Origin: Parcubacteria group bacterium GW2011_GWA2_40_23
Lineage (GTDB): Bacteria > Patescibacteriota > Patescibacteriia > UBA11705 > JABHMO01
Length of the DNA stretch: 64,000 nucleotides
Direction: 5' to 3'
Assembly (NCBI GenBank): GCA_000996245.1
Contig: LBYP01000004.1
Span: 10,860-74,859, forward strand
The notes beneath the pieces are model-generated. The model was not told the origin of the DNA. It saw only the letters and a program-made list of their open reading frames with translations, and made no database searches. Within the stretch, counting starts at the first letter, position 1. Each line of letters begins with the position of its first letter. Shown one piece after another: positions 7,101 to 29,567 of the stretch. The position numbers were made by a program, and so were the translations under genes.

Positions 7101-8141
7101 ATGCTGAAAATTAAAAAACAAAGAATTAACTTTATCGTTTTAATAATTGTTCTTGCGTTTTTATTAATGGGGACGATTGTTATTGTTATTAGAAATGAAC
7201 GAACTTTAAACATCCCTGTTAAAAATTCTGACACGGTTGAGCTAGAAATACCGAAAGTTTGCGAGAAAATTAGAAAAATTGATGGGCGTTGCATCACTCA
7301 AGATGAGGTTGGTGTTGTTGGTGTGATGATAGATAATCATGTCGGCGCGCGACCACCAGCTGGTTTAAGCCAGGCGAGCTTGGTTTATGAAACAATCGTT
7401 GAAAGCCCCATTACGCGTTTCCTGGCTATTTTTTCTTTGGATGAAAATGTGGAAAAAATTGGGCCAGTGCGTTCAGCACGACCTTTTTATGTTGATTGGG
7501 TTAAAGAGTTTAATGGTGTTTATGCACATGTAGGCGGAAGTAATGCGGCCATAGAGAATTTGAATGCTACTTATGATTTTAATTTCGACGAATTTTACAA
7601 TGGTGCATATTTTTATCGTGATAATTATCGCAGCACTCCACACAATGTTTTTACTTCAAGCGAGTTAATTAAGAAGGCGATTGAGGATAAAAAGTGGGAT
7701 GTGAAAAGTTCTTTTGAAAGCTGGAAGTTCCATCCAGATTCATTGGTAGACGGGAATGTTCTTGGAATTGAAGTGGATTTTAAAACGTACGACTTTTTAG
7801 TCCGATGGGAATATGATGTTACTCAGAAAAACTATGTTCGGTATGAGGGACATGAAATTCATTCTGAAAAAGATGGTACAGAAATTCGTGCCTCAAATGT
7901 AGTAATTATGTATACAGAAAGCTCTATCATCGATAATTATGGTCGTCGGGATACTCGCACTCTGGGTTCAGGCCAAGCACTAGTTTTTCAAAACGGACAG
8001 GTTATTGAAGGTTTGTGGAAGAGAGAGAAGCTAATAGATCGTACAAAATTTTATAATCAAGCAGGCGAGGAAATTTCCTTTTATGTCGGCACGACATGGA
8101 TTGAGGTTGTTACTGCGGAAACAGCTAAGGTAAAATATTAA
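7101..8141 (+). CDS. membrane-anchored protein resembling the DUF3048 (YerB-like) family
   Basis: 346 aa with an N-terminal TM helix. The block VMIDNHVGARPPAGLSQASLVYETIVESPITRFLAIFS resembles the DUF3048 conserved core; the family assignment is from memory. Confidence 0.45.
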   Translation: MLKIKKQRINFIVLIIVLAFLLMGTIVIVIRNERTLNIPVKNSDTVELEIPKVCEKIRKIDGRCITQDEVGVVGVMIDNHVGARPPAGLSQASLVYETIVESPITRFLAIFSLDENVEKIGPVRSARPFYVDWVKEFNGVYAHVGGSNAAIENLNATYDFNFDEFYNGAYFYRDNYRSTPHNVFTSSELIKKAIEDKKWDVKSSFESWKFHPDSLVDGNVLGIEVDFKTYDFLVRWEYDVTQKNYVRYEGHEIHSEKDGTEIRASNVVIMYTESSIIDNYGRRDTRTLGSGQALVFQNGQVIEGLWKREKLIDRTKFYNQAGEEISFYVGTTWIEVVTAETAKVKY

Positions 8142-8142
8142 T

Positions 8143-8862
8143 ATGCAAATCAACAAACAAACAATATTTACTTTTCTGATCATTCTGGTTTTTGGTTCCG
8201 GTTTATCTATTTATGTTTGGAACAAAATTCAGGGGCGTGATTTGGCGCAACCACCGAACTTTGATCTTTCGGCGTATAACAATTTTGAATTAAATGCAGA
8301 AATAGATAAAAGAGCCAATAAAGAATTACAAAAGCTACTGGCTGCTAAAGCGCAACCGGAAGTTGTTCAGCCTGAGATCGCAGTGGTCGAGACTCAAAAG
8401 CTGGAAACTGATTTTGAGCCAGGCTATATTTATTTTAGAAATTCTTTTGGTTCAACTAGTGTTACAGAAACAAACAGTTTAATAAAAAGTTTCCTCAAAG
8501 ATTTCCCTGAATTAAAAGACGCTATCATCGATAATTTTGAAACTCAGTTGAAGACGAAGGTTGAAATACCCGCGTTGGGACGAGAAGATTTGTTAAAAAA
8601 TATTAAGATTGAGTCAGAGGTGTTGAACGTCGAGGTTGTTGAAGCCCCAATATGGCAGGTTGTATTTAAAGAAGGCAAAATTGAAAGCGAAATAGCTGAG
8701 TTTTTCAAAAGATTTCCAGATATTAAAATTCAGCCAGCCGAACCTAAAATCACAATTGAAAATTATGTTGCCCGAATAAAAATTTCTGATTTGAAGTTAG
8801 AACAAGTTTTACTTGATAAACTACAAAAAGAATATTCAGATGTTTTAAAAGTATCTCTTTAA
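8143..8862 (+). CDS. hypothetical membrane-anchored protein
   Basis: 239 aa with an N-terminal TM helix (IFTFLIILVFGSGLSIYVW). Tightly follows the upstream gene. Confidence 0.45.
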   Translation: MQINKQTIFTFLIILVFGSGLSIYVWNKIQGRDLAQPPNFDLSAYNNFELNAEIDKRANKELQKLLAAKAQPEVVQPEIAVVETQKLETDFEPGYIYFRNSFGSTSVTETNSLIKSFLKDFPELKDAIIDNFETQLKTKVEIPALGREDLLKNIKIESEVLNVEVVEAPIWQVVFKEGKIESEIAEFFKRFPDIKIQPAEPKITIENYVARIKISDLKLEQVLLDKLQKEYSDVLKVSL

Positions 8863-8863
8863 T

Positions 8864-9440
8864 ATGCAAATAGGTTTTTCAACAGCAGACTTGTATGAAC
8901 ATCCCAATCAATTGTCTCTGGATATTTTAGACAAGCAAATTAGTTTAGGGGCTTCAGTCATCGATTGATAAAGCTATTCTGGCTGAGTTGATTGCCATCC
9001 AAAAGAAGTTCAACTTTGAATACATTAATTTCCATCCTGATAAAATTACGGACTTCAATGTTTTAGTCGAATCTGGTTTGCCGGTTTGTATGGAGAATAT
9101 GGACAGCCGCAAGTTGGCTTTTCGTTCTGTCGAAGATATGCAGAAAATTTTAGATCAATATCCTTTTGGTATGGTTTTAGATCTTAATCACTGCTATTCG
9201 AATGGGGGGAATATGGATTTGGTAAATGAATTCTGGAATAAGTTTGAAAAGAGAATCAAGTATTTTCATCTAAGTGGTTTTACAACTTTGCACGACCCGC
9301 TTTATAAAACAAAACAAAATCAATTGGTTGATTTTGTGGAGAGTAAAAGTGTGCCTGTAATTATTGAGAGTATGTTAGAGAATGTAGTAGAGATGGAAAC
9401 AGAGTGGCATTATATCATGGATAATTTGACGGATGTTTAA
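8864..9440 (+). pseudogene. possible frameshifted gene: 34-codon ORF (8864..8968) plus a +1-frame ORF (open from 8949, TTG 8988..9440); TIM-barrel-like hypothetical
   Basis: MQIGFSTADLYEHPNQLSLDILDKQISLGASVID stops at TGA 8966-8968. A different frame is open from 8949 and continues for 150 aa (…IAIQKKFNFEYINFHPDKI…YFHLSGFTTLHDPL). The N-terminus resembles sugar-phosphate isomerase/epimerase TIM-barrel starts. The two frames overlap at 8949-8968. Confidence 0.35.
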
Positions 9441-9470
9441 AGCGATATTATCGTTAAGCGTGGATAGCTT
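9436..9470 (+). repeat. direct repeat flanking the R-M cassette (left copy; duplicate of the prmC 3' end)
   Basis: tttaaagcgatattatcgttaagcgtggatagctt matches 11605-11640 (tttaaagggatattatcgtcaggcgtggatgacta) at about 85% over roughly 35 bp. Confidence 0.6.
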
Positions 9471-9532
9471 GTTCCTTTTCTTTTTTCGACTGAGGGGGTA
9501 CACTTTTCTATATATACAAATATAAAGTTAAT

Positions 9533-10240
9533 ATGGCATATTTAAAATTTATTTCCGATAAAGATTTTTTTGCTGCTGTTGGCAAGGTTGTTAGAATAAT
9601 AGAATCAGCAGAACATGATGCAATTATTAATCTTCACAAAAATGTGATCGATCCGTTTTCTGCAATTTTCCATGGTGTAACCCACTCAATTACTTATAAA
9701 GAATGGATTGAACAGGAAAAAGCTCGACAATCGCAAAAAACAATGCAGAATGCGATTGGTGTTTTTCACCAAGAAATACTGGGGGCAGTCACCGGTTGGG
9801 AAAATATGGGTGCAGGAGGCGGGTTGGATGTTGTAAATAGAGAGATGATGATGATTGCAGAAATAAAAAATAAATTTAATACAACAAAAGGAAATCATAA
9901 GGTGGAAGTATATGATGCTATAAAATCAATGCTTAAAACCAAGGAATATGAAATGTTTACGGGGTATTATGTAGAAATAATTTCACAAGGTAAAAATAAA
10001 TACGATAAACCGTTTATTCCACCTGATAATAAAACAAAGAAAAGACGGCCAGTTAACAAAAAGATCAGAGTTATTGATGGGCTAAGCTTTTATGCTTTAG
10101 CCACGGGTAGAAAGCAGGCCTTGCAGGAGTTGTTTGAAGCTCTTTCTCATGTTTTAGTGGATAACTATAAGTTTAAATTAGGTAAAAGGGAGGCGCTTCA
10201 GTACTTCGAATTATTTAGGTTAGCTTTTTCCACAGAGTAA
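9533..10240 (+). CDS. putative type II restriction endonuclease (PD-(D/E)xK-like), partner of the adjacent Dcm-type methyltransferase
   Basis: 235 aa ORF immediately upstream of and co-directional with a C5-MTase. Contains a D..E.K-like block (LDVVNREMMMIAEIKNK). No housekeeping homology. The REase call is inferred mainly from gene context. Confidence 0.4.
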   Translation: MAYLKFISDKDFFAAVGKVVRIIESAEHDAIINLHKNVIDPFSAIFHGVTHSITYKEWIEQEKARQSQKTMQNAIGVFHQEILGAVTGWENMGAGGGLDVVNREMMMIAEIKNKFNTTKGNHKVEVYDAIKSMLKTKEYEMFTGYYVEIISQGKNKYDKPFIPPDNKTKKRRPVNKKIRVIDGLSFYALATGRKQALQELFEALSHVLVDNYKFKLGKREALQYFELFRLAFSTE

Positions 10241-10263
10241 CCTTTGCCTATGCAATGGTTATT

Positions 10264-10296
10264 TGGTATAATTATGATAGATTAAATATCTATCAT
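10264..10296 (+). promoter_or_regulatory. extended -10 promoter (TGGTATAAT) followed by a perfect 9-5-9 palindrome ATGATAGAT-TAAAT-ATCTATCAT, a putative operator for the HTH-MTase
   Basis: tggtataat at 10264-10272. The palindrome at 10274-10296 ends 8 nt before the MTase ATG (10304). Confidence 0.5.
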
Positions 10297-10303
10297 TTTT
10301 TAT

Positions 10304-11554
10304 ATGAGGGAAGAACAATTTATTACTGCAGGAGAAGCGGCGTTTAAATTAGGCATTTCTATAGATACTATTAGGAGATGGGATAAAAAGGGATTGATCA
10401 AATCTTTCAGGGACGAAAGGAATGATCGTATGTTTAGTTTAGAGGAGATAAAGAGAATTCAAAATAAAACTCAAGGAGACAAAAAAAGTAAATTTAAAAT
10501 ATTAAAAAATAAAGAAACATCAAAATATACAGCAATTGAATTGTTCGCAGGAGCGGGAGGGACGGCTTTAGGGATGGAAAATGCTGGGATTCAACACATC
10601 TTGCTCAATGAGTATGACAAGCACGCTTGTGAAACACTCAGAATCAACAAACCAAACTGGAATGTTGTTGAACAAGATGTTCGAGAGCTAAAATTTTTTG
10701 AAGGACAAGCAGATATTGTTCAGGGTGGTTTCCCTTGCCAGACATTTTCGTGCGCTGGGAACAAAAGGGGATTTGAAGATATACGGGGCACATTATTTTT
10801 TGAATTCGCAAGATGTGTCAAAGAAGTTAGACCAAAAATAGCGATCGGGGAAAATGTAAAAGGATTATTAAATCATGATGATGGCCAAACAATTAAAACC
10901 ATGGTTGGTGTTTTGGAGGAAATAGGATATAGAGTTAAGTATAAAGTTTTAAGATCTCAATATTTGGATATTCCACAAAAAAGAGAAAGATTAATAATTA
11001 TTGGTGTAAGAAATGATTTGAATATATCGATTGCGTTTCCGAAAGAGAAGGATTATATAATACCTTTGCGAGAAGCACTGCACAAATGTCCCAAATCAGC
11101 TGGACAAGAATATCCAGAAACAAAAAAAAGGATAATGAAATTAATTTCTCCTGGTGGATATTGGAGAGATCTCCCTGAGAAATTGCAAAAAGAATATATG
11201 GGAGCAAGTTATTTTATGGGTGGGGGAAAAACGGGAATGGCACGACGTTTATCGTGGGATGAACCATCACTTACTTTGACTTGTAGCCCAGCACAAAAAC
11301 AAACTGAACGTTGCCATCCAGAAGAAACACGTCCTCTTTCTGTTCGTGAATATGCACGAATTCAGACATTTCCGGACAGTTGGCAGTTTTCTGGTTCTGT
11401 CGCACAACAATATAAACAAATTGGGAACGCTGTACCTGTAAATCTTGGTTATTATATTGGTGACACGATTATAAAGATGCTCGAGGGAGAGATTGAAGAA
11501 GATGTTGTAGAACCAGTTAGAATACAGCAACAATTATTTGGATTTGCTACATAA
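10304..11554 (+). CDS. DNA (cytosine-5)-methyltransferase with an N-terminal MerR-like HTH domain
   Basis: 416 aa. N-terminal HTH (ITAGEAAFKLGISIDTIRRWDKKGLI). C5-MTase motif I (ELFAGAGGTALG), motif IV PCQ (GGFPCQTFSCAGNKRGFED), motif VI ENV (GENVKGLL) and the conserved C-terminal QIGNAVPV. Confidence 0.9.
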   Translation: MREEQFITAGEAAFKLGISIDTIRRWDKKGLIKSFRDERNDRMFSLEEIKRIQNKTQGDKKSKFKILKNKETSKYTAIELFAGAGGTALGMENAGIQHILLNEYDKHACETLRINKPNWNVVEQDVRELKFFEGQADIVQGGFPCQTFSCAGNKRGFEDIRGTLFFEFARCVKEVRPKIAIGENVKGLLNHDDGQTIKTMVGVLEEIGYRVKYKVLRSQYLDIPQKRERLIIIGVRNDLNISIAFPKEKDYIIPLREALHKCPKSAGQEYPETKKRIMKLISPGGYWRDLPEKLQKEYMGASYFMGGGKTGMARRLSWDEPSLTLTCSPAQKQTERCHPEETRPLSVREYARIQTFPDSWQFSGSVAQQYKQIGNAVPVNLGYYIGDTIIKMLEGEIEEDVVEPVRIQQQLFGFAT

Positions 11555-11604
11555 AATTTAAACCAGACAAATTCAATGGAACTATATTTTTTGTTTGCCT
11601 GACA

Positions 11605-11640
11605 TTTAAAGGGATATTATCGTCAGGCGTGGATGACTAG
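11605..11640 (+). repeat. direct repeat flanking the R-M cassette (right copy; lies within the 3' end of prmC)
   Basis: See 9436-9470. This copy encodes the PrmC C-terminus (…[10 protein letters not shown]) on the minus strand. Confidence 0.6.
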
Positions 11641-12460
11641 CTAAATCTCTAATCACTTGCGTTTTGGCTTTAGCCAAAGCGTTTTTTATTATCTTTCTTA
11701 GTTTAGTCGCTTGTTTGTTCCCGTGTTCGATAATAATAAAGTGGGGGAGTCGCTTCATTTTTTTTATTTGCTGAAAAAACTTTCGGTAAGCGTCGAGTCC
11801 ATCAACGCCGGAATAAAGAGCTAGACTCGGTTCGAACTTTAAGCCTTGAGTTTCAGATGAATTTAAATGATTTTTTAAGTCAGTTTCTAAGTAGGGAAGA
11901 TTGGTGACGACGATATCAATCTGTTCGTTTTTTATCGAAGTTAATAAGTTGCCTTGAGCGAATTTTATTTTGATTCGATGACGACGAGCGTTCTGCTTAG
12001 CAATTAATAATGCCTTTCTTGACTTGTCTGTTGCAAAAAGTTTTGCTTTCGGTAACTTTTTCGCAAGTGAAATCGCAATCGCTCCGGATCCTGTTCCAAT
12101 GTCAGCGATAGTAATGGCTGATTTATAATTAACTTTGACGAGTTCAATTGTTTTTTCGACGAGAAGTTCAGTCTCAGGGCGGGGGACTAAAACGTCTTTT
12201 GTGACCTTGAAACTCAATCCGAAAAAATCTTTGTATCCAGTAATCTGCGCGACCGGAACATGTTTGGCTCGAGTGTTAATTTGTTTTAAGAAAAGACGTT
12301 CTTGATTTGATGTAAGTTTTTTTTCTGAATGTGTATAAATAAATTCTTTCGATTTTTTTAGCGTCTGCATTAAAATAACCTCGGCATCAAGATTGGCCGA
12401 AGTTACTTTTGCTGTTTTTAATATTTCTCGAGCTTGTATTAAAGCTTCTTTGATTATCAT
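11606..12460 (-). CDS. prmC: release factor glutamine N5-methyltransferase PrmC (HemK)
   Basis: 284 aa. SAM-binding [14 protein letters not shown] and the NPPY-type motif (VVTNLPYL). Overlaps the prfA stop, as in the usual prfA-prmC operon. Confidence 0.85.
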
Positions 12461-13515
12461 TTGTTTTGTAGTTTGAAGTCTGCTTCTTTCAAGGCTTCGA
12501 TAATTGGCGCGATGTTTCCATCTAAAAGAGTTGTAATATTATTCCAGTTTTCTTTAATGCGATGGTCGGTAATCCGATCTTGTGGATAATTATAAGTACG
12601 AATTTTTTCACTGCGATCGCCAGTACCGATTTGGGCGCGACGTTGGCTGCCGAGAGCATTTTCACGTTTAGTCATTTCTAGTTCGTATAAACGAGAACGC
12701 ATCACGCGCATAGCTTTTTCTTTGTTCTGCGCTTGTGAGCGTTCGTCTTGGCAAGAAACAATTGTATTAGTTGGCAAATGAGTCAATCGAACGGCTGACT
12801 TTGTTGTGTTGACACTCTGTCCACCGGCACCACCAGAACAAAAAGTATCTATTTTAATTTCATTAGGGTCAATTTTTATATCAAGTTCTTCTGCTTCTGG
12901 TAATACGGCGACTGTAATGGCTGAAGTGTGAATACGTCCTTGTTTTTCAGTTTCTGGAACGCGCTGTACTCGGTGTGTGCCGCTTTCATATTTAAGGAAG
13001 CCATAAACACCAGTGCCATTAACTTCAAAAACAACTTCCTTAAAGCCTCCGAGTTCACTTAAACTGCTAGAGACAATATGTGTTTTCCAACCTTGTCTTT
13101 CTGCAAAGCGAGAGTACATTCTGAATAGTTCAGCTGCAAAAAGCGCTGATTCGTCACCGCCGGTGCCGGCACGTATTTCCATAATGACATTCTTTTTGTC
13201 TCGTGGATCTTGTGGTGTTAGGGCAAATTTAACTTGTTTTTCTAGCTCTGCAATCTCTGGTTCTAGTATAGCTATTTCTTGCGCGGCGAGCTCATGCATT
13301 TCAGTTTCATTTTCATTGAGAAGAGTTTCTTGAGCTTCTTTCAGGTGAGCCAGTTTTTTTTCATAGTTATTAAAGAGCGCGATCATGGGTACGAGTTCAG
13401 AGTGCTCGCTAGAAAGGGTCTTTAATTTTTCTTGATTATTGATAATAGAAGAGTCCTGGAGTTGTTGCTCCAGTTCTTGAAAACGTTGTTTAAGTTTGTT
13501 GATTTGATCTTGCAT
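12457..13515 (-). CDS. prfA: peptide chain release factor 1
   Basis: 352 aa. GGQ motif ([22 protein letters not shown]) and an RF1-type tripeptide region (RVQRVPETE, PxT class rather than the SPF of RF2). Confidence 0.9.
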
Positions 13516-13581
13516 ATCGTTCTGGCTCTATTATATCAAAAAACCGTCCGAATAGATAAAACAGGGACGGTTTTGAAGTAG

Positions 13582-13866
13582 TTATTTATTGACTTTGCTG
13601 GTTTTCTTTTCTGCCTTGGCAATGAGTTTTGCTTTTTTACCCTTGCTAGCAGTTGCAGTAGTGTCTTTTTTAGATAATCTTTCTTGGAATTTTTCTACAC
13701 GGCGTGCAGTGTCAACCAATCTTTGTTTACCAGTATAAAAAGGGTGGCAAAGATGGCAAATTTCAACTTTAATTTCAGGCATTGTTGAGCCTGTAGTGAT
13801 TTCATTGCCGCAAACACAGATTATTTTTGCAGCTTTGTGATACTTTGGATGAATATCTTTTTTCAT
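13582..13866 (-). CDS. rpmE: 50S ribosomal protein L31
   Basis: 94 aa. [48 protein letters not shown] carries the CxxC…CxxC zinc ribbon typical of L31. Confidence 0.9.
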
Positions 13867-13871
13867 ATGAG

Positions 13872-13962
13872 GTAGCTTATAGCTAGTTAGCTTATAGCTT
13901 TTAGGTGCTGAGGATTTTAGTGTCAGACACCTAGAAGCTAGCTCCTATAAGCTAAAAGCTTC
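13872..13962. repeat. ~90 bp imperfect palindromic intergenic element rich in AGCTTATAGCT units (copy 1 of 2)
   Basis: agcttatagctagttagcttatagcttttaggtgctgaggattttagtgtcagacacctagaagctagctcctataagctaaaagct. The central hairpin is aggtgctga/tcagacacct. Related to 26634-26724. Confidence 0.55.
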
Positions 13963-14112
13963 ATGGTTTGTAATTAAGTAATCAGATGATATCATATTGT
14001 AATAATTTTGGCAAGGTTGAGCTGTTTTTAGCTAAAAATGGGGCATGTGGATAACGGAGGACAGGCGGCAAAAAAAATGCTATAATCATTTTAGTAAATA
14101 ACAAACAAAATT

Positions 14113-14454
14113 ATGAAAACTAAGAAGTTTTTAGGCGGTTTAGCGTTAGGCGCACTTATCGGTGGTGCTTTAGGACTTTTTTTAAGTCCAGGCAAGGGTA
14201 AGGAAAATCGCGAACAATTTAAAAAGATCAGTAAGCAGTTGAGTGAGAAGCTAGTGACAGATGTGACAAAATTGAAAAAAGTCGGGAAAGAAGAATACGA
14301 ACAAATAGTGGAAAATTTGATCAAGAAATACTCAAAATCAGATTTATTGACTGTTGAAGCTTGGTCAGAAATTGCACAGGAATTAAAGCTTCGCTGGAAA
14401 GATATTCAGAAGGAAATGGGTGCTAAGCCAGTTAAGAAGAGCAGTAAAAAGTAG
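14113..14454 (+). CDS. YtxH-like small membrane-associated protein
   Basis: 113 aa. N-terminus KKFLGGLALGALIGGALGLFLSPGKGKENREQF matches the YtxH/DUF948 glycine-zipper pattern. Confidence 0.6.
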   Translation: MKTKKFLGGLALGALIGGALGLFLSPGKGKENREQFKKISKQLSEKLVTDVTKLKKVGKEEYEQIVENLIKKYSKSDLLTVEAWSEIAQELKLRWKDIQKEMGAKPVKKSSKK

Positions 14455-14578
14455 TTAATTAGCCGGCGGCGTTTAGCCAATGGATTGATTATAAGTTGCA
14501 AAATTAGCAACTCAAAACCTAGAGAGAGAGAGTAAGACCTTCGCCTTTGTGCGGAGGTTTTATTTTTTCACATAGAGC

Positions 14579-14618
14579 GGCTTGCCCCGAACTTGTGTGA
14601 TTAGCACATAGTTCGGGG
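14579..14618. repeat. GC-rich hairpin element GCTTGCCCCGAAC..GTTCGGGG (copy 2 of 2)
   Basis: ggcttgccccgaact…agttcgggg. The same prefix occurs at 6272. It is preceded by another hairpin plus T-run (14538-14570) that likely terminates the ytxH-like gene. Confidence 0.5.
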
Positions 14619-14654
14619 AGGTTATATTTTTACTCTTTTTTATTTGTAAATAAT

Positions 14655-14691
14655 AATTCGTAACATCAAATTAGAAAGTTCTATTCGTAAC
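14655..14691 (+). promoter_or_regulatory. direct-repeat motif AATTCGTAAC-N17-TATTCGTAAC (site A of 3)
   Basis: aattcgtaac at 14655-14664 and tattcgtaac at 14682-14691, 27 bp start-to-start. Ends 5 nt upstream of the -35 box at 14697. The same architecture occurs at 22380-22415 and 29634-29669. Confidence 0.5.
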
Positions 14692-14696
14692 TCTGT

Positions 14697-14724
14697 TTGA
14701 CAAAACATAGCAAATCATTATAAT
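14697..14724 (+). promoter_or_regulatory. consensus sigma70 promoter TTGACA-16-TATAAT
   Basis: TTGACA at 14697-14702 and TATAAT at 14719-14724; it drives the GC-rich ORF downstream. Confidence 0.6.
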
Positions 14725-14781
14725 AAATTTTGCTTCTGAGTGAAGCATGGTTCTGGCTCCAAACCTTTGTGGAGGGTTCCA

Positions 14782-15264
14782 ATGACTCAAAAAATGACCT
14801 GCGATCAAATCGCGAACGCGATTCGTGATGGCTTGCCCGAGGGCTATGCCAAAGCGGCGCGTTTCCAAGTCCGCAAGGTTCATTCGGGGTTCTTGGTGAT
14901 CGTACCGACGCATCAGGTCGGTGGTAAGCGCGTGCTCAAAACGCACTTCGATAACAGCGATTCCCAGACCCTCGTCGCTCATATCATCGCGCACTTCAAG
15001 TCGTCCGTTCCCGAAGATACCGTTGCCTCCCTGCCCAGAGAGTTCCTTTGTGCCAAGGTGAGCACAGCGATTCGTCAGGCCTTGAAGGGCCTCGATGGAA
15101 TCCGTTTCAACGTGCGTCCGGTTCGTGATGGCCTGTGCGTGATCATCCCGTTCCACCGGACCAAGGGTGTCGAGATTCCCAGAGCGCACATCGGTCCGAA
15201 CTTGGACGAGTCCTACCTCGTGACTCGCGCTGTCGAGCACTTCCAGCAGCACCTCGCCGCCTAG
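14782..15264 (+). CDS. GC-rich hypothetical protein with an internal tandem duplication
   Basis: About 160 aa (ORF track starts at 14740; ATG 14782 gives MTQKMTCDQ…). Two similar ~70-aa halves (CDQIANAIRDGLPEGYAKAARFQVRKVHSGFLVIVPTH and CAKVSTAIRQALKGLDGIRFNVRPVRDGLCVIIPFH). GC-rich codons unlike neighbouring genes. The opposite-strand ORF 14671..15348 is judged spurious. Confidence 0.45.
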   Translation: MTQKMTCDQIANAIRDGLPEGYAKAARFQVRKVHSGFLVIVPTHQVGGKRVLKTHFDNSDSQTLVAHIIAHFKSSVPEDTVASLPREFLCAKVSTAIRQALKGLDGIRFNVRPVRDGLCVIIPFHRTKGVEIPRAHIGPNLDESYLVTRAVEHFQQHLAA

Positions 15265-17444: not shown

Positions 17445-17828
17445 TTATTGATTAAGCTCCTTTTGTTGTAAATATTCAATCCAACCAGAAGTCATTTTTG
17501 AGATTTCTTGTAATTTCTCTTGAAAAACGCCATAGTTTTTTTCTTTGAGTGTTGATAGTTCTAATTCAAGTCTAATGAATTGTTTAAGAGTTTCAATTTC
17601 AATCTTTAACTCTTTAACTACAGGGAGCTTTTCGAGTTTTTGCATTAACGCTGCTTTAATTGCCAGGCGTAGACAAGCTAGAATTACGGATTCTGTTTTT
17701 GATCTTATTCCGTATTTATCGACTTTTGGCAGACCCTTGGTGTTTTGATAGAGCATTTTAAATAAGTCGGAAATTTTATGAACAATCGAAGCGTGAATGA
17801 CATCGGAGGCAATGAATTTGTTGGTCAT
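17445..17828 (-). CDS. avd: Avd-like accessory variability determinant (four-helix-bundle protein)
   Basis: 127 aa. LYQNTKGLPKVDKYGIRSKTESVILACLRLAIKAAL fits the Avd / 23S-rRNA-IVS four-helix-bundle pattern (fPK..KYGL.SQ…). Located between TR and RT but on the opposite strand; its 5' end overlaps the RT ORF by 51 nt. Confidence 0.55.
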   Translation of the reverse strand: MTNKFIASDVIHASIVHKISDLFKMLYQNTKGLPKVDKYGIRSKTESVILACLRLAIKAALMQKLEKLPVVKELKIEIETLKQFIRLELELSTLKEKNYGVFQEKLQEISKMTSGWIEYLQQKELNQ

Positions 17829-18860
17829 AGTGTTTTTGATAAAATTATTTCTATTGAAAATTTATATGGCGCTTGGCGAGAATTTAAACGAGGCAAGACC
17901 AGCAAAAAAGATGTTCTTTGTTTTGAATTTAACTTGGAGGATAATTTGTTCAATTTAGCTGAAGAATTGAAATTAGGCAATTATTTAGTTGAAAAGTATG
18001 ATTTTTTCTATGTGCGTGATCCTAAATTACGGCCGATTCACAAAGCTTCAGTGCGAGATAGAGTCGTTTTTCAAGCTGTCTTTCGGGTACTTTACCCTGT
18101 TTTTGATAAGCAGTTTATTCACGACTCCTGTTCATGTCGTTATAAGAAGGGAATACATTTTGCCGTCGCTCGATTGCGTCGATTTTGTGCCAAAGTAAGT
18201 AATAATTACCATCAGCAAGCATTTGCTTTAAAATGCGATGTCAAAAAGTTTTTCTATTCCATTGATCATGTTATTTTGAAAAAACTCATTAAAAGAAACA
18301 TCGAGGACACGCGTCTGTTGCACCTGATAGATATTATCGTTGATAGTTTTTCTGTAGCTCCAGAAAAGGGTTTGCCGCTGGGAAATGTTACTAGCCAGTT
18401 ATTCGCCAACATCTATTTGAACGAGTTGGATATATTTATCAAACATGAATTACATGAAAAATTTTATCTTCGTTATTGCGATGATTTTATTATTTTGAGC
18501 GAAAGTCAAAGTCATTTATTTGATTTGATACCAATTATAAGTGAGTTTCTCTCATCAGAGTTAAAATTAAAGCTGCATCCGGGTAAAGTTCAACTTAAAA
18601 AAATGACTCAAGGGATTGATTTTTTAGGATATGTAACATTGCCATATTATGGTGTTCTTCGAACGAAAACAAAACAAAGGATGTTTAGGAAGGTTATTGC
18701 AGCCTCGGAAAAGCTGGATGCTGATTTGATTGATAAGATTGGTTTTAACCAAGTGCTGCAATCATATTTGGGAATACTGCAACATTGCCAGAGCTTTTGG
18801 TTACAGCAGGAGCTATTGTTTCTTTGCGGAGAATGCCTTGCTGAAACACAAAAATCGTGA
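17778..18860 (+). CDS. DGR-type reverse transcriptase
   Basis: 360 aa. RT domains are present. LPLGNVTSQLFANIYLNELD carries the DGR-specific (I/L)GxxxSQ motif. The YxDD box reads RYCDDFIILS. No in-frame alternative start lies before the conserved RT region. Confidence 0.85.
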   Translation: MNNRSVNDIGGNEFVGHSVFDKIISIENLYGAWREFKRGKTSKKDVLCFEFNLEDNLFNLAEELKLGNYLVEKYDFFYVRDPKLRPIHKASVRDRVVFQAVFRVLYPVFDKQFIHDSCSCRYKKGIHFAVARLRRFCAKVSNNYHQQAFALKCDVKKFFYSIDHVILKKLIKRNIEDTRLLHLIDIIVDSFSVAPEKGLPLGNVTSQLFANIYLNELDIFIKHELHEKFYLRYCDDFIILSESQSHLFDLIPIISEFLSSELKLKLHPGKVQLKKMTQGIDFLGYVTLPYYGVLRTKTKQRMFRKVIAASEKLDADLIDKIGFNQVLQSYLGILQHCQSFWLQQELLFLCGECLAETQKS

Positions 18861-26999: not shown

Positions 27000-29567
27000 A
27001 TGCCAGAATTGGAGTTGGATTTATCGATTGGGAGTTCAATTACAGACAACCCTATGTTTTTACCAGGATTAGGAATTTTGTTTCTAATCTTTTTGTTTAT
27101 TATTATACTCTATATTATTAGATATTTTTCTCTTCATCGCGGACGAGTAGCAGTATCTTTCCAAAAGAAAATTATGCTAATCACTATGCCGAAAGCTGCT
27201 CCCAAGGAGGGCGGAGGTACAGAACCACCCGCCTGGCAGCAGGTACAAGAGAAAATCGCGGTGATGGAAACATTTTTTTCAACTATTGCGGGACTTAAGG
27301 CTGAAAAGGGTATTAAGACTTGGTTTTTTGGCCATCGTGATGTTTTTTCTTTAGAAATTGTGGCCGATAAGGAGGGGAAGATTAATTTTTTTATGGCTAT
27401 TCCTGCACATTGGCAGCAATATGTAGAAGAACAGCTGCAAGCGCAGTTTCCTCAAGCTTTTTTGGAAGAAGTCCCAGATTATAATATTTTTTCACCGACC
27501 GCAGTTATTGGTGGTCGCATGTTTACTTTTAAACGGGAGTACATTTTTCCCATAAAAACATTTAAGAAGTTTGATTCTGATCCATTAAATGGAATTACGA
27601 ATGCCTTGAGTAAAATGGACATAGGGGACGGTGCGGCCATCCAGATTGTCATTAAATCAGCCAGAGGCAGTTGGCACGATTTCGGCGTTAAATTAGCTTC
27701 TAAAATGCAGCAGGGTAAAAGTCTAAAGGATGCCATGCGTGAAGTAAAAGGTGGCATCTGGGGCTTTATTAGTGGGATAGCTAAAGCAGCCAAACCAAAA
27801 TCGGCCGAACCACAACAGCAGGAACAATATAAGTTATCACCCATGGAAGAAGAGGTTGTTAAGGGTCTGGAAGAAAAAGCTAGCAAGGCTGGAGTTGACG
27901 CTAATATTAGAATAGTTGTTTCTTGTGAACGGCCGGAAAAAACAGAAATGCAATTAACAAGTTTAGTTAATGCGTTTGCACAATACAGCATTTATCAATT
28001 CGGGAATGGTTTACAACCAGAAGAACCTTCTTTGAAAAAAATGATCCCTGATTTTATTTATAGAAATTTTGATTCTAAACGCAAGATGCTTTTCAACACT
28101 GAAGAGCTAGCTAGTTTGTATCATTTTCCAATTCCACTTATCAATGAAACTCCAAGTATCCGTTGGTTAGATGCCAAGAAAGCACAAGCACCGCTTAATG
28201 TACCGAAGGAAGGTATTATTTTGGGTAAAAATTTATATCGTGGTCGCGAAACTTTAATCCGCATCAAACGTGAAGATAGACGACGCCATCAATATATTAT
28301 TGGTATGACGGGTACTGGTAAATCGTGGTATCAAGAAGGTTTGATCATGCAAGATATTGTTAATGGTGAGGGTTGTTGTTTTATCGATCCGCATGGTGAT
28401 GCCATTCAACATATTTTGGAACATATTCCACAAGAACGCGCTGAGGATGTGGTCATTTTAGATCCAAGCGATGTTAGACGTCCCATGGGTTTGAATTTAT
28501 TGGAATATAAAACACAAGAAGAAAAAACTTTTGCGATTAATGAAATCATGGCCATTTTTGATAAGTTGTATGATTTGAAGGCAACAGGCGGTCCTATGTT
28601 TGAACAATACTTCAAAAATGCAGCGGCTTTGATTATGGCTGATCCTGAGTCTGGTTCAACACTTTTAGAAATTTCACGCGTGTTAGCTGATGATGATTTT
28701 AGAAAATACAAACTTTCAATGTGTAAGGATCAATTGGTTAAAGATTTTTGGGAAAAGGAAGCTCAAAAAGCCGGTGGGGAAGCCTCTTTGGCCAACATGG
28801 TGCCTTACATTACCAGTAAAATGTCGCCCTTTATTTCGAATGATTTTGTGCGTCCGATTATTTCGCAGCAAAATAGCACTATCGACTTTAAGGAAATCAT
28901 GAATACCAAAAAGATTCTGTTAGTCCAATTATCTAAGGGTAAAATTGGTGGGATTAATGCCAACCTCCTCGGTATGTTGATTATTGGTAAATTGCTCATG
29001 GCTGCCTTAGGACGATCTGACATGGCAGAAGAAGATCGTAAAGATTTTTATCTATATGTGGATGAGTTTCAAAACTTTTTGACTGACAGTATGGAAATTA
29101 TCTTGTCTGAAGCCCGAAAATATCGTTTATGTTTAACAATTGGACACCAATACGTTGGGCAGCTGGTCAAGGGCGGGGACACAAAATTCAAAGATGCTAT
29201 TTTTGGTAACGTCGGTACAAAAGTTGTTTTCCGTATTGGCGTAGATGATGCTGAGGCGCTAACAAAGGAATTTGCACCTATTTTTAATGAATATGATTTC
29301 TTGAATGTTCCAAAATACAATTGCTATGTCAAGCTACTTATAGATAATGCAAATCCACCCGGATTTAATATGGCTTCTATCCCTTTTGACAAAATACCTG
29401 GTGTCCCACCCGCTAATAAAGACTTGGCTGAGGCTATCCGAGAACTCTCACGCTTGAAATATGGTAAAGATCCAGATATAATTGAGATGGAAGTCAAAGA
29501 ACGGCAACAAAAGATCTTGTGCAAAACAGCGCCACCGCTTGCCCCGAATTTACCGCCAGCAATTTAA
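27000..29567 (+). CDS. VirD4/TraG-like coupling-protein-family ATPase (DUF87/TraD-type DNA-transfer ATPase), membrane-anchored
   Basis: 855 aa. N-terminal TM helix. Walker A (IIGMTGTGKSWYQ). Walker B-like (FYLYVDEFQNFLTD). The segment CCFIDPHGD…VVILDPSD…RPMGLNLLE is typical of T4SS coupling / conjugal-transfer ATPases. Confidence 0.55.
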   Translation: MPELELDLSIGSSITDNPMFLPGLGILFLIFLFIIILYIIRYFSLHRGRVAVSFQKKIMLITMPKAAPKEGGGTEPPAWQQVQEKIAVMETFFSTIAGLKAEKGIKTWFFGHRDVFSLEIVADKEGKINFFMAIPAHWQQYVEEQLQAQFPQAFLEEVPDYNIFSPTAVIGGRMFTFKREYIFPIKTFKKFDSDPLNGITNALSKMDIGDGAAIQIVIKSARGSWHDFGVKLASKMQQGKSLKDAMREVKGGIWGFISGIAKAAKPKSAEPQQQEQYKLSPMEEEVVKGLEEKASKAGVDANIRIVVSCERPEKTEMQLTSLVNAFAQYSIYQFGNGLQPEEPSLKKMIPDFIYRNFDSKRKMLFNTEELASLYHFPIPLINETPSIRWLDAKKAQAPLNVPKEGIILGKNLYRGRETLIRIKREDRRRHQYIIGMTGTGKSWYQEGLIMQDIVNGEGCCFIDPHGDAIQHILEHIPQERAEDVVILDPSDVRRPMGLNLLEYKTQEEKTFAINEIMAIFDKLYDLKATGGPMFEQYFKNAAALIMADPESGSTLLEISRVLADDDFRKYKLSMCKDQLVKDFWEKEAQKAGGEASLANMVPYITSKMSPFISNDFVRPIISQQNSTIDFKEIMNTKKILLVQLSKGKIGGINANLLGMLIIGKLLMAALGRSDMAEEDRKDFYLYVDEFQNFLTDSMEIILSEARKYRLCLTIGHQYVGQLVKGGDTKFKDAIFGNVGTKVVFRIGVDDAEALTKEFAPIFNEYDFLNVPKYNCYVKLLIDNANPPGFNMASIPFDKIPGVPPANKDLAEAIRELSRLKYGKDPDIIEMEVKERQQKILCKTAPPLAPNLPPAI

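What the first reader, a model, noticed from the sequence alone, without database searches (positions are those of the whole stretch)
9436..11640. Restriction-modification cassette inserted with a ~35 bp duplication of the prmC 3' end
The ~2.1 kb segment carrying a putative REase (9533..10240) and a Dcm-type C5-methyltransferase (10304..11554) is bracketed by direct repeats. 9436-9470 matches 11605-11640 at about 85%, including the blocks gatattatcgt and gcgtggat. The right copy encodes the genuine C-terminus of PrmC; the left copy is a non-coding duplicate. This is the footprint expected if a mobile R-M module integrated at the prmC 3' end and duplicated the target, or recombined at a short homologous site. 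The REase call rests mainly on gene context.
Basis: seen in the sequence. Interest (0 to 1): 0.6.

Follow-up and report, generated by a model that had tools for sequence, protein, structure and literature searches.

The report
Restriction-modification cassette inserted with target duplication
A two-gene restriction-modification unit (Eco47II-type nuclease plus its cytosine methylase) was inserted exactly where two convergent genes of a groundwater Parcubacteria genome overlap, and about 45 bp of that junction was duplicated so both genes kept their ends; this is a clean example of an already described way these units move, not a new kind.

Summary
Window 9425-9465 and 11594-11634 are direct repeats (34/41 identical). 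They can be followed to about 48 nt and lie 2169 nt apart. They score more than 11 sd above shuffled flanks.

Between them lie a full-length Eco47II-family endonuclease (Pfam E 4e-52, invariant D-x10-ExK) and a C5 cytosine methyltransferase with an N-terminal MerR-type HTH.

The empty site exists in the two closest relatives found. There prmC and the TIM-barrel gene converge and overlap by 4 nt (TTAA), with no cassette and one copy of the repeat sequence. The tree is (window, L011), L014, so this is one gain.

The same cassette occurs in many other Patescibacteria at unrelated loci, without this repeat. The repeat is therefore target-derived and not part of the element.

No integrase, transposase or terminal inverted repeats are present.

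All criteria of Kobayashi's class "R-M insertion with long target duplication" are met. How the duplication arose is unresolved: in situ, or by Campbell-type entry of a circle carrying a copy of the junction.

GGNCC depletion is mild and equal in relatives that lack the cassette.

Verdict: a real feature, largely correctly read by the first stage, and a new member of a known kind. Interest is modest.

The parts
9425..9472 (.). Left copy of the duplicated target. Positions 9425-9440 are the genuine 3' end and stop (TAA, 9438-9440) of the upstream TIM-barrel ORF. Positions 9437-9472 are a relic of the prmC 3' end, which reads [11 protein letters not shown] on the minus strand.
9473..11593 (+). 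Inserted segment (2121 nt) that is absent from the empty sites of the relatives. It carries the REase and MTase genes plus short unique edges (9473-9532 and 11555-11593). Those edges have no homology to other copies of the cassette.
9533..10240 (+). Eco47II-family Type II restriction endonuclease, 235 aa. The putative PD-(D/E)XK catalytic residues D99, E110 and K112 are invariant in 9 homologs.
10238..10296 (+). Conserved R-M spacer. It holds a 24-nt palindrome (10238-10261) that overlaps the REase stop and a -35 TTGCCT (10244-10249), an extended -10 TGgTATAAT (10264-10272), and a second inverted repeat ATGATAGAT-N5-ATCTATCAT (10274-10296). These are the candidate promoter and operators for the HTH domain of the MTase.
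   Evidence: 84-95% nt identity across cassettes whose REases are only 66-82% identical in protein
10304..11554 (+). C5 cytosine DNA methyltransferase, 416 aa, with an N-terminal MerR-type helix-turn-helix (aa 8-53) fused to the PF00145 catalytic domain (aa 76-391).
11594..11641 (.). Right copy of the duplicated target. Positions 11594-11609 are a degenerate relic of the TIM-barrel ORF 3' end (reads ..CLPDI* on the plus strand). Positions 11606-11641 are the genuine 3' end and stop of prmC.
11606..12460 (-). prmC (release-factor glutamine methyltransferase), intact, 284 aa. Its start overlaps the end of prfA.
   Evidence: TIGR03534, 248.8 bits, above the cut-off
8866..9440 (+). Left target gene: a xylose-isomerase-like TIM-barrel (AP_endonuc_2) gene, broken into a 34-codon N-terminal piece (8866-8970) and ORF 8988-9440. 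About 31 codons are missing and the frame has shifted, compared with the intact 225-aa ortholog in L011.
11659..11692 (+). Terminator-like hairpin plus T-run on the plus strand, lying inside the prmC coding region and conserved in both empty-site relatives. I infer that it stops plus-strand transcripts, which now include the R-M transcripts.
   Evidence: function is inference

Best explanation
A 2.1-kb Type II restriction-modification unit entered the chromosome of this Parcubacteria lineage (GW2011_GWC2_39_14-like). The unit consists of an Eco47II/Sau96I-family endonuclease, probably specific for GGNCC, and its cognate C5 methyltransferase with a fused HTH regulator domain.

It entered exactly at the point where two convergent genes overlap by their stop codons (TTTAAA). 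About 41-48 bp of that junction is present on both sides of the insert. The left copy therefore supplies the 3' end of the upstream gene and the right copy supplies the 3' end of prmC, so neither gene was truncated.

This is the pattern called 'insertion with long target duplication' (Nobusato 2000; Furuta 2010), which involves no transposase or integrase.

Shown here:
- the repeats;
- the empty site in the sister and outgroup lineages;
- the identity and intactness of R and M;
- the mobility of the same cassette among other Patescibacteria at unrelated loci;
- the absence of mobility genes.

Inferred:
- The duplication arose at insertion, either by repair or fill-in of a long staggered break or by replication-based repair. 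Events that duplicated both stop codons survived because essential prmC stayed intact.
- The methylase represses its own promoter through the conserved palindromes in the R-M spacer.
- The cassette transcripts end at the pre-existing hairpin inside prmC.
For: - Repeats: 41 nt at 83% identity, score 23.5 against a null of 9.9 +/- 1.2.
- Empty site: in L011 and L014 the two genes overlap by 4 nt, and a single sequence aligns to both window copies.
- Phylogeny: (window, L011), L014 from RF1 identities of 96.9/90.9/91.2% and DUF3048 identities of 91/75/77%. This means one gain rather than two precise losses.
- R and M domains and motifs are present and intact.
- The same R(235 aa)-M(416 aa) cassette sits in different gene neighbourhoods in more than 20 other contigs. 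None is next to prmC and none carries this repeat.
- The cassette's outer edges share no homology with other copies.
- No integrase or transposase lies in the neighbours or among 33 Pfam-scanned ORFs in the window, 31 of them among the 46 ORFs of at least 170 aa.
- The literature criteria are all met: R+M inside, insert under 20 kb, direct repeat over 30 bp, no mobile-element genes, repeats often spanning start or stop sites (PMC2853133).
Against: - The two copies differ at 7 of 41 positions, so they are either old or were never identical.
- The relic prmC end keeps an open frame, and 4 of its 5 differences are synonymous. This fits a copy that evolved as coding DNA elsewhere slightly better than neutral decay in place.
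- No same-species empty site or excision product was found.
- The empty-site comparison is between species, not within one.
- The molecular mechanism behind long target duplications has never been demonstrated experimentally for any system. Furuta et al. (PMC2853133) report direct evidence only for the amplification step of their proposed life cycle; the wider statement rests on my own reading of the literature.
Confidence: 0.8

Rival explanations
1. Campbell-type (homologous, single-crossover) integration. A circular R-M unit already carried one copy of the ORF/prmC junction, picked up when it looped out between flanking repeats in a closely related host. It recombined with the resident junction. 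The left relic of prmC and the right relic of the ORF are therefore donor sequence, not decayed duplicates. This matches the 'release and re-invasion' step of Kobayashi's proposed life cycle for R-M units.
For: - The relic prmC end reads [11 protein letters not shown] against the genuine [11 protein letters not shown]. It has no stop, and 4 of 5 differences in 11 codons are synonymous. Under random substitution the probability is about 0.02-0.035.
- The relic of the ORF end reads LPDI* against LTDV*, which again looks like coding sequence.
- The ...PRLTIISL terminus occurs only in this small clade, so a donor would have to be a close relative. That is what homologous integration requires.
- The 17% divergence between the repeats coexists with fully intact R and M genes.
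Against: - Under the fairer null, in which the functional copy also accumulates synonymous changes, I estimate the synonymous excess has a probability of only about 0.09.
- No other lineage was found with this cassette at the prmC junction.
- No circle-junction or empty-site sequence was recovered, although the only collection scanned also missed known positives.
- The model still needs a first insertion with duplication in some earlier host.
Confidence: 0.15
2. Site-specific integration by a tyrosine or serine recombinase acting in trans. The repeats would be attL and attR, and the element would carry a replacement 3' end for prmC, as integrative elements do at tRNA genes.
For: - The geometry resembles integration at the 3' end of a gene: the target's end is restored by a repeat.
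- One homologous cassette (L018) lies about 3.2 kb from a serine recombinase gene, with four intervening genes including a Rep gene.
Against: - There is no recombinase in the 2.1-kb insert, in the +/-6-kb neighbourhood, or among the ORFs of at least 170 aa in the 64-kb window.
- Other copies of the cassette share no att-like sequence at their edges.
- The repeat contains both target gene ends rather than a core shared with the element.
- Furuta et al. use a threshold of more than 30 bp with no mobility genes precisely to exclude this class.
Confidence: 0.04
3. Chance similarity, or an assembly artefact, next to a vertically inherited R-M pair.
For: None beyond the AT-rich background, which produces many short repeats.
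Against: - No shuffle of 100 reached the observed score.
- Both copies align to the single-copy junction of the relatives.
- At least 12 independent contigs carry the structure.
- The cassette is absent in the sister and outgroup lineages.
Confidence: 0.01

Closest known systems
R-M gene insertion with long target duplication (Nobusato et al. 2000, Gene 259:99; Furuta, Abe & Kobayashi 2010, NAR 38:2428, PMC2853133)
   Same: - R and M genes are the only cargo.
- The insert is small (2.1 kb).
- The direct repeats are longer than 30 bp. The 41-48 bp here compares with 46-47 bp in H. influenzae and T. thermophilus.
- The repeats align to a single-copy sequence at an empty site in a relative.
- There are no transposase or integrase genes.
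- The repeats span stop sites, so the target genes stay intact.
   Different: - The host is a CPR/Patescibacteria (Parcubacteria) genome known only from metagenomes.
- The target is a 4-nt overlap of two convergent stop codons, so one duplication rescues two genes.
- The repeats are more diverged (83%) than most published cases (93-100%).
- The empty site comes from sister species rather than strains of the same species.
Eco47II / Sau96I Type IIP R-M systems (GGNCC); Pfam PF09553
   Same: - The REase matches the Eco47II family over its full length (E 4e-52).
- It has a D-x10-E-x-K motif, consistent with the PD-(D/E)XK assignment of Eco47II/Sau96I (PMC3045609).
- It is partnered with a C5 methyltransferase.
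   Different: - Specificity has not been shown here.
- The MTase has an N-terminal MerR-type HTH.
- The clade is a large Patescibacteria-specific radiation, with 57-82% identity among more than 100 homologs.
SsoII / Ecl18kI / EcoRII / MspI-type R-M systems regulated by an HTH domain fused to the C5 methyltransferase (PMC2760811, PMC3978073)
   Same: - There is an N-terminal HTH region of about 70 aa ahead of the C5 MTase domain.
- Conserved palindromes overlap the M promoter immediately upstream of the M gene. This suggests autorepression by steric exclusion of RNA polymerase.
   Different: - The genes here are tandem (R then M), not divergent.
- The HTH matches the Pfam MerR models. Whether the SsoII-group HTH is of another type I did not compare.
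- There are two distinct palindromes instead of a single 15-bp operator.
- Binding has not been tested.
Integrative elements that insert at the 3' end of a gene and restore it (tRNA-gene integration by phage or ICE integrases)
   Same: Direct repeats flank the insert, and one of them restores the 3' end of the target gene.
   Different: There is no integrase. The repeat is target-derived on both sides and is not carried by other copies of the cassette. The target is a protein-gene junction.

Membership tests
R-M insertion with long target duplication (Furuta et al. 2010 criteria) | Both an R and an M gene homolog lie inside the inserted sequence | tested here: met
   PF09553 at E 4.4e-52 and PF00145 at E 7.6e-83, both inside 9473-11593
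R-M insertion with long target duplication (Furuta et al. 2010 criteria) | Inserted sequence shorter than 20 kb | tested here: met
   2121 nt lie between the repeats, and the repeat period is 2169 nt
R-M insertion with long target duplication (Furuta et al. 2010 criteria) | Flanking direct repeats longer than 30 bp | tested here: met
   41 nt at 83% identity, traceable to about 48 nt. No shuffle of 100 reached the score
R-M insertion with long target duplication (Furuta et al. 2010 criteria) | The repeat sequence is single-copy at an empty site in a related genome | tested here: met
   L011 and L014 have one junction sequence that aligns to both window copies, and no cassette. The comparison is between species; no same-species empty site was found
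R-M insertion with long target duplication (Furuta et al. 2010 criteria) | No other mobile-element genes or terminal inverted repeats | tested here: met
   No integrase or transposase in the neighbours or in 33 scanned ORFs. No inverted repeat at the insert boundaries
Eco47II/Sau96I-type Type IIP R-M | REase belongs to the Eco47II family with an intact catalytic motif | tested here: met
   The match covers positions 1-197 of the 202-position profile. D99, E110 and K112 are invariant in 9 homologs of 57-100% identity
Eco47II/Sau96I-type Type IIP R-M | Recognition and methylation of GGNCC | not testable with these tools
   No REBASE or biochemical data are available. GGNCC observed/expected is 0.78, similar to relatives without the cassette (0.67 and 0.80)
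SsoII/Ecl18kI-like HTH-methyltransferase-regulated R-M | DNA-binding HTH domain fused to the N-terminus of the C5 MTase | tested here: met
   MerR/MerR_1 HTH at aa 8-53 (E 2e-8 and 1e-7, above the gathering scores), followed by PF00145 at aa 76-391
SsoII/Ecl18kI-like HTH-methyltransferase-regulated R-M | Palindromic operator at the M promoter, bound by the MTase | tested here: inconclusive
   Two palindromes and a TTGCCT-17-TATAAT promoter are conserved in 11 cassettes. Binding cannot be tested here
SsoII/Ecl18kI-like HTH-methyltransferase-regulated R-M | Divergently oriented R and M genes sharing the regulatory region | tested here: not met
   R and M are tandem on the plus strand with a 63-nt spacer
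Integrase-mediated site-specific insertion (attL/attR) | A recombinase gene is associated with the element, and an att core is shared by its copies | tested here: not met
   No recombinase was found. The edges of other cassette copies share no sequence with the window repeat
IS/transposon insertion | Transposase, terminal inverted repeats, and a short (under 15 bp) target-site duplication | tested here: not met
   None of the three is present. The duplication is 41-48 bp

The most novel reading that the evidence does not exclude
The two repeat copies were never identical. On this reading, the cassette travels between closely related Parcubacteria as a small circle (or linear fragment) that carries one copy of the prmC/TIM-barrel junction, and it re-enters by homologous recombination at that conserved junction. 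The 'relic' halves would then be the donor lineage's once-functional gene ends. This would be natural evidence for the release and re-invasion steps of the proposed virus-like life cycle of R-M units, which Furuta et al. (2010) state have no experimental support.
Probability: 0.15. Interest if true: 0.55.

Novelty: new member of a known kind. Interest (0 to 1): 0.3.

Why it matters
This extends a mode of R-M mobility first documented in Helicobacter, Haemophilus, Thermus and other cultivated bacteria to the Candidate Phyla Radiation. It does so with an unusually clear footprint: a single duplication preserves two overlapping convergent genes, one of which (prmC) is a core translation-termination factor gene.

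It also shows that one Eco47II-type cassette, with a conserved HTH-methylase control region, is widely exchanged among Patescibacteria.

The value is mainly as a well-documented example and for annotation. The REase is real, the TIM-barrel ORF is a pseudogene, and the relic repeat should not be called as a gene. It is not a new principle.

Tried and rejected
(1) Search for a same-species empty site. Exact-protein look-ups of PrmC, the REase and ORF150 returned only contigs that carry the insert.

(2) Search for an empty junction or an excised circle junction. A degenerate 47-nt pattern scanned against metagenome contigs gave 0 hits. The same pattern is present in L006, a JGI contig that the scan did not return, so the negative result is uninformative.

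(3) The genome-contig scan with PrmC found only distant relatives at 36-44% identity. The useful relatives came from the protein search plus contig look-ups.

(4) GGNCC avoidance. Depletion is mild (observed/expected 0.78) and indistinguishable from relatives without the cassette (0.67 and 0.80). I rejected it as evidence of age or specificity. The 7.6-kb GGNCC-free stretch around the cassette is not significant once the number of gaps is taken into account.

(5) Base composition shows no foreign signature. The cassette is about 34% GC, against 38% for the window as a whole and 32-39% in the adjacent genes.

(6) Test for generality of flanking repeats. Of 16 other cassette loci, only L019 showed a clearly significant flanking repeat. 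L047/L048 share a 14-nt AT-rich repeat of marginal significance. The L019 repeat turned out to be a roughly 170-nt element that recurs in many loci, so it is not a target duplication.

(7) Synonymous-difference test on the relic. The nominal P is about 0.02-0.035, but about 0.09 under a null that lets the functional copy evolve. I did not rely on it.

(8) Polarising the left/right differences with L011 and L014 gave an ambiguous result.

(9) Rfam found nothing at E <= 1 in window 8800-12600. In L019 it gave only three chance-level hits far below the gathering scores, none at the repeat.

(10) The viral-contig scan with the REase found no relatives.

(11) The apparent extension of the right repeat further left (11563-11593) overlaps sequence homologous to another cassette's 3' flank, so I judged it to be chance.
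Full report
**1. The observation**

The region was read directly. The repeat finder reports the pair 9425-9465 / 11594-11634 as the top direct repeat of the 4.1-kb region: 41 nt, 83% identical, 2169 nt apart.

I compared the 350 nt upstream of the endonuclease gene with the 350 nt downstream of the methylase gene. The best ungapped segment scored 23.5, against 9.9 +/- 1.2 (maximum 14) in 100 dinucleotide-preserving shuffles. A degenerate pattern covering both copies hits only these two places in 64 kb.

The same structure is present in at least 12 contigs from independent assemblies (ENA, Logan, JGI, NCBI). The repeat is real, non-random and not an assembly artefact.

**2. What lies between and beside the repeats**

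- ORF 9533-10240 matches Pfam RE_Eco47II (PF09553) at E 4.4e-52, over positions 1-197 of the 202-position profile. In an alignment of nine homologs of 57-100% identity, D99, E110 and K112 are invariant. This D-x10-ExK motif fits the PD-(D/E)XK assignment of Eco47II/Sau96I (PMC3045609).
- ORF 10304-11554 is a C5 cytosine methyltransferase (PF00145 at 7.6e-83; TIGR00675) with a MerR-type HTH at residues 8-53.
- ORF 11606-12460 (minus strand) is PrmC (TIGR03534, above the cut-off).
- ORF 8988-9440 is only the C-terminal two-thirds of a xylose-isomerase-like TIM-barrel protein. The N-terminal 34 codons lie at 8866-8970 in another frame, and about 31 codons are missing relative to the intact 225-aa ortholog.

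The source organism is named by NCBI as Parcubacteria group bacterium GW2011_GWC2_39_14, from Rifle groundwater.

**3. The empty site**

The two closest PrmC relatives in the 5.8-billion-protein collection are P0002 (77% identical) and P0003 (71%, from GW2011_GWC2_38_7). Their contigs (L011-L013 and L014-L016) are syntenic with the window over more than 12 kb on both sides: gyrB, ftsW, L25, DUF3048..., prmC, prfA, L31, ytxH, lgt.

Both lack the two R-M genes. In both, prmC and the TIM-barrel gene converge and overlap by 4 nt.

Read on the window's plus strand, the junction is ...GATAATTTGACGGATGTTTAAAttgagacgattgtaatgcgcgg... in L011. The TAA of the plus-strand gene and the TTA (the reverse complement of TAA) of prmC share two bases inside TTTAAA. 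Both window copies align to this single sequence.

The left copy continues leftwards into the genuine TIM-barrel gene end (MDNLTDV*, identical in all three lineages). The right copy continues rightwards into genuine prmC.

RF1 identities are 96.9% (window-L011), 90.9% (window-L014) and 91.2% (L011-L014). DUF3048 identities are 91, 75 and 77%. These give the tree (window, L011), L014, so presence in the window alone is one gain; the alternative is two precise losses.

**4. The repeat belongs to the target, not the element**

The REase has more than 500 homologs, and those that carry a source name are labelled Patescibacteria or unclassified 'bacterium'. In over 20 contigs the same 235-aa R plus 416-aa HTH-M pair sits in unrelated neighbourhoods, with 66-82% (R) and 77-90% (M) protein identity. 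Examples:

- L017/L018: on the same side as Rep and serine recombinase genes 2.4-3.2 kb away (with three small ORFs between) and directly followed by an HNH gene.
- L019: beside a helicase, an AAA_15 gene and another methylase.
- L021: among housekeeping genes.

None of these is adjacent to prmC or the TIM-barrel gene, and none contains the core GATATTATCGTyArGCGTGGAT. Homology between cassettes starts about 35 nt before the R start codon and ends within about 25 nt after the M stop. The window's outer edges (9441-9532 and 11555-11605) match nothing in the other loci. The two-gene unit is therefore horizontally mobile, and the repeat was generated from the local target.

**5. No dedicated recombination machinery**

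- The insert contains only R and M.
- The neighbours within +/-6 kb are housekeeping genes plus a reverse transcriptase/bAvd pair, which is a diversity-generating retroelement.
- I scanned 33 ORFs of the window against Pfam, 31 of them among the 46 ORFs of at least 170 aa. None is an integrase or transposase.
- There are no inverted repeats at the insert boundaries.
- A 41-48-bp duplication is far longer than transposon target-site duplications.

**6. Comparison with the known class**

- R and M homologs lie inside the insert.
- The insert is shorter than 20 kb.
- The target duplication is longer than 30 bp.
- No other mobile element is involved.
- The repeats align to an empty site.

They list repeats of 46-47 bp in H. 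influenzae and T. thermophilus. [quoted passage not shown]

Every criterion is met here (see the membership table). The case is therefore a new member of a known kind. What is specific to it is the host (a CPR bacterium), a target in which two stop codons overlap so that one duplication rescues two genes, and rather diverged repeats.

**7. How the duplication arose (unresolved)**

*Model A: in-situ duplication at insertion.* This would occur by repair of a long staggered break or by replication-based repair, followed by decay of the two non-functional halves.

*Model B: Campbell-type single crossover.* The resident junction would recombine with a circular cassette that already carried a junction copy from a close relative.

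For model B:
- The relic prmC end is still an open frame ([11 protein letters not shown] against the genuine [11 protein letters not shown]).
- In the 11 codons from Ser to the stop, 4 of 5 nucleotide differences are synonymous. The probability is 0.02-0.035 if substitutions fell at random.
- The relic of the other gene end reads LPDI* against LTDV*.

Against reading too much into this:
- If the functional copy is also allowed to accumulate synonymous changes, I estimate P at about 0.09.
- The numbers are tiny.
- The ...PRLTIISL terminus is confined to this clade, so the relic is equally well a copy of the resident gene.
- No donor lineage was found.

I put A at roughly 0.6-0.65 and B at 0.15, within an overall confidence of 0.8 in 'insertion with long target duplication'. 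Integrase-mediated integration gets about 0.04 and chance about 0.01.

**8. How the cassette probably works (inference from conserved sequence)**

The 63-nt R-M spacer is more conserved than the coding regions: 84-95% nucleotide identity across cassettes whose REases are only 66-82% identical in protein. It contains:

- a 24-nt palindrome, TAACCwTTGCmTAGGCAwTGGTTA (window 10238-10261), overlapping the R stop codon and a -35 TTGCCT;
- an extended -10, TGgTATAAT (10264-10272);
- a second perfect inverted repeat, ATGATAGAT-N5-ATCTATCAT (10274-10296), just before the M start.

By analogy with SsoII/Ecl18kI, the fused HTH probably binds one or both palindromes and autorepresses M. In those systems the HTH of a C5 methylase binds a palindromic operator and excludes RNA polymerase from the M promoter (PMC2760811; PMC3978073).

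The analogy is functional only. The genes here are tandem rather than divergent, and the HTH matches the Pfam MerR models, so I do not file the cassette as a member of the SsoII group.

Plus-strand transcripts leaving M run into a hairpin plus T-run at 11659-11692. This lies inside prmC and is conserved in both empty-site relatives, so it pre-dates the insertion.

**9. Specificity and site avoidance**

GGNCC is expected from family membership only. In the window it occurs 49 times against 62.8 expected under a maximal-order Markov model (ratio 0.78). The ratio is 0.67 in L011 and 0.80 in L014, both of which lack the cassette. The depletion therefore says nothing specific. The cassette itself has no GGNCC site (about 2 expected).

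**10. Verdict**

It is a textbook-quality example of a documented but mechanistically unexplained mode of R-M gene mobility, found in a lineage where it had not been described. Interest is modest (0.3). The most novel reading still open is that a donor-derived junction copy travelled with the cassette. It has a probability of about 0.15 and would be moderately interesting.

Noticed in passing
window 8866-9440: The TIM-barrel (AP_endonuc_2) gene next to the insert is a pseudogene. A 34-codon N-terminal piece (8866-8970) and ORF 8988-9440 lie in different frames, and about 31 codons are missing compared with the intact 225-aa ortholog in L011. In the outgroup L014 only the last 76 codons are recognisable. 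The gene is decaying independently in two of the three lineages.
   Followed up: yes
L019:4693-4861 and L019:7073-7229; also L038:5563-5733, L039:7138-7308, L040:5644-5814, L042:5627-5797, L037:7779-7939, L031:7078-7207, L036:7912-8002: An intergenic element of about 170 nt flanks the homologous R-M cassette on both sides in L019. It recurs (nhmmer E 1e-37 to 1e-5) within 60-900 nt downstream of the methylase gene in several other Patescibacteria contigs. It has a long-range stem with some compensatory changes and inner hairpins. It has no Rfam match and is absent from the window. It could be an unknown small RNA, a leader or a MITE-like repeat. The covariation support is weak.
   Followed up: partly
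window 10238-10296: The spacer between the R and M genes is more conserved than the coding regions: 84-95% nucleotide identity across cassettes whose REases are only 66-82% identical in protein. It holds two different palindromes around a near-consensus promoter.
   Followed up: partly
window 11659-11692: A plus-strand terminator-like hairpin with a T-run lies inside the coding region of minus-strand prmC. It is nearly identical in L011 and L014. It is apparently a terminator for the convergent gene that is embedded in an ORF.
   Followed up: partly
window about 17556-18860: A reverse transcriptase ORF (17778-18860, RVT_1 at E 9e-22) lies next to a bAvd-family gene. The bAvd gene is at about 17556-17867 on the minus strand, by coordinate conversion from L001. 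This is the signature of a diversity-generating retroelement. Template and variable repeats were not looked for.
   Followed up: no
window 27000-29567: An 855-aa protein has TrwB/TraG-type coupling-protein domains (type IV secretion or DNA-transfer ATPase) in an otherwise housekeeping region.
   Followed up: no
L024, L025, L026, L027 (contig ends 102-162 nt into the REase gene); L003 (contig end inside the MTase gene): Several independent assemblies break inside the cassette rather than at the repeats. This would fit near-identical cassette sequence shared with other genomes in the same communities, or strain heterogeneity.
   Followed up: no
window 7461-15087: A 7.6-kb stretch containing the cassette and its neighbours has no GGNCC site, although the mean spacing in the window is 1.3 kb. 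By my estimate this is not significant once the roughly 50 gaps are taken into account (site positions).
   Followed up: partly
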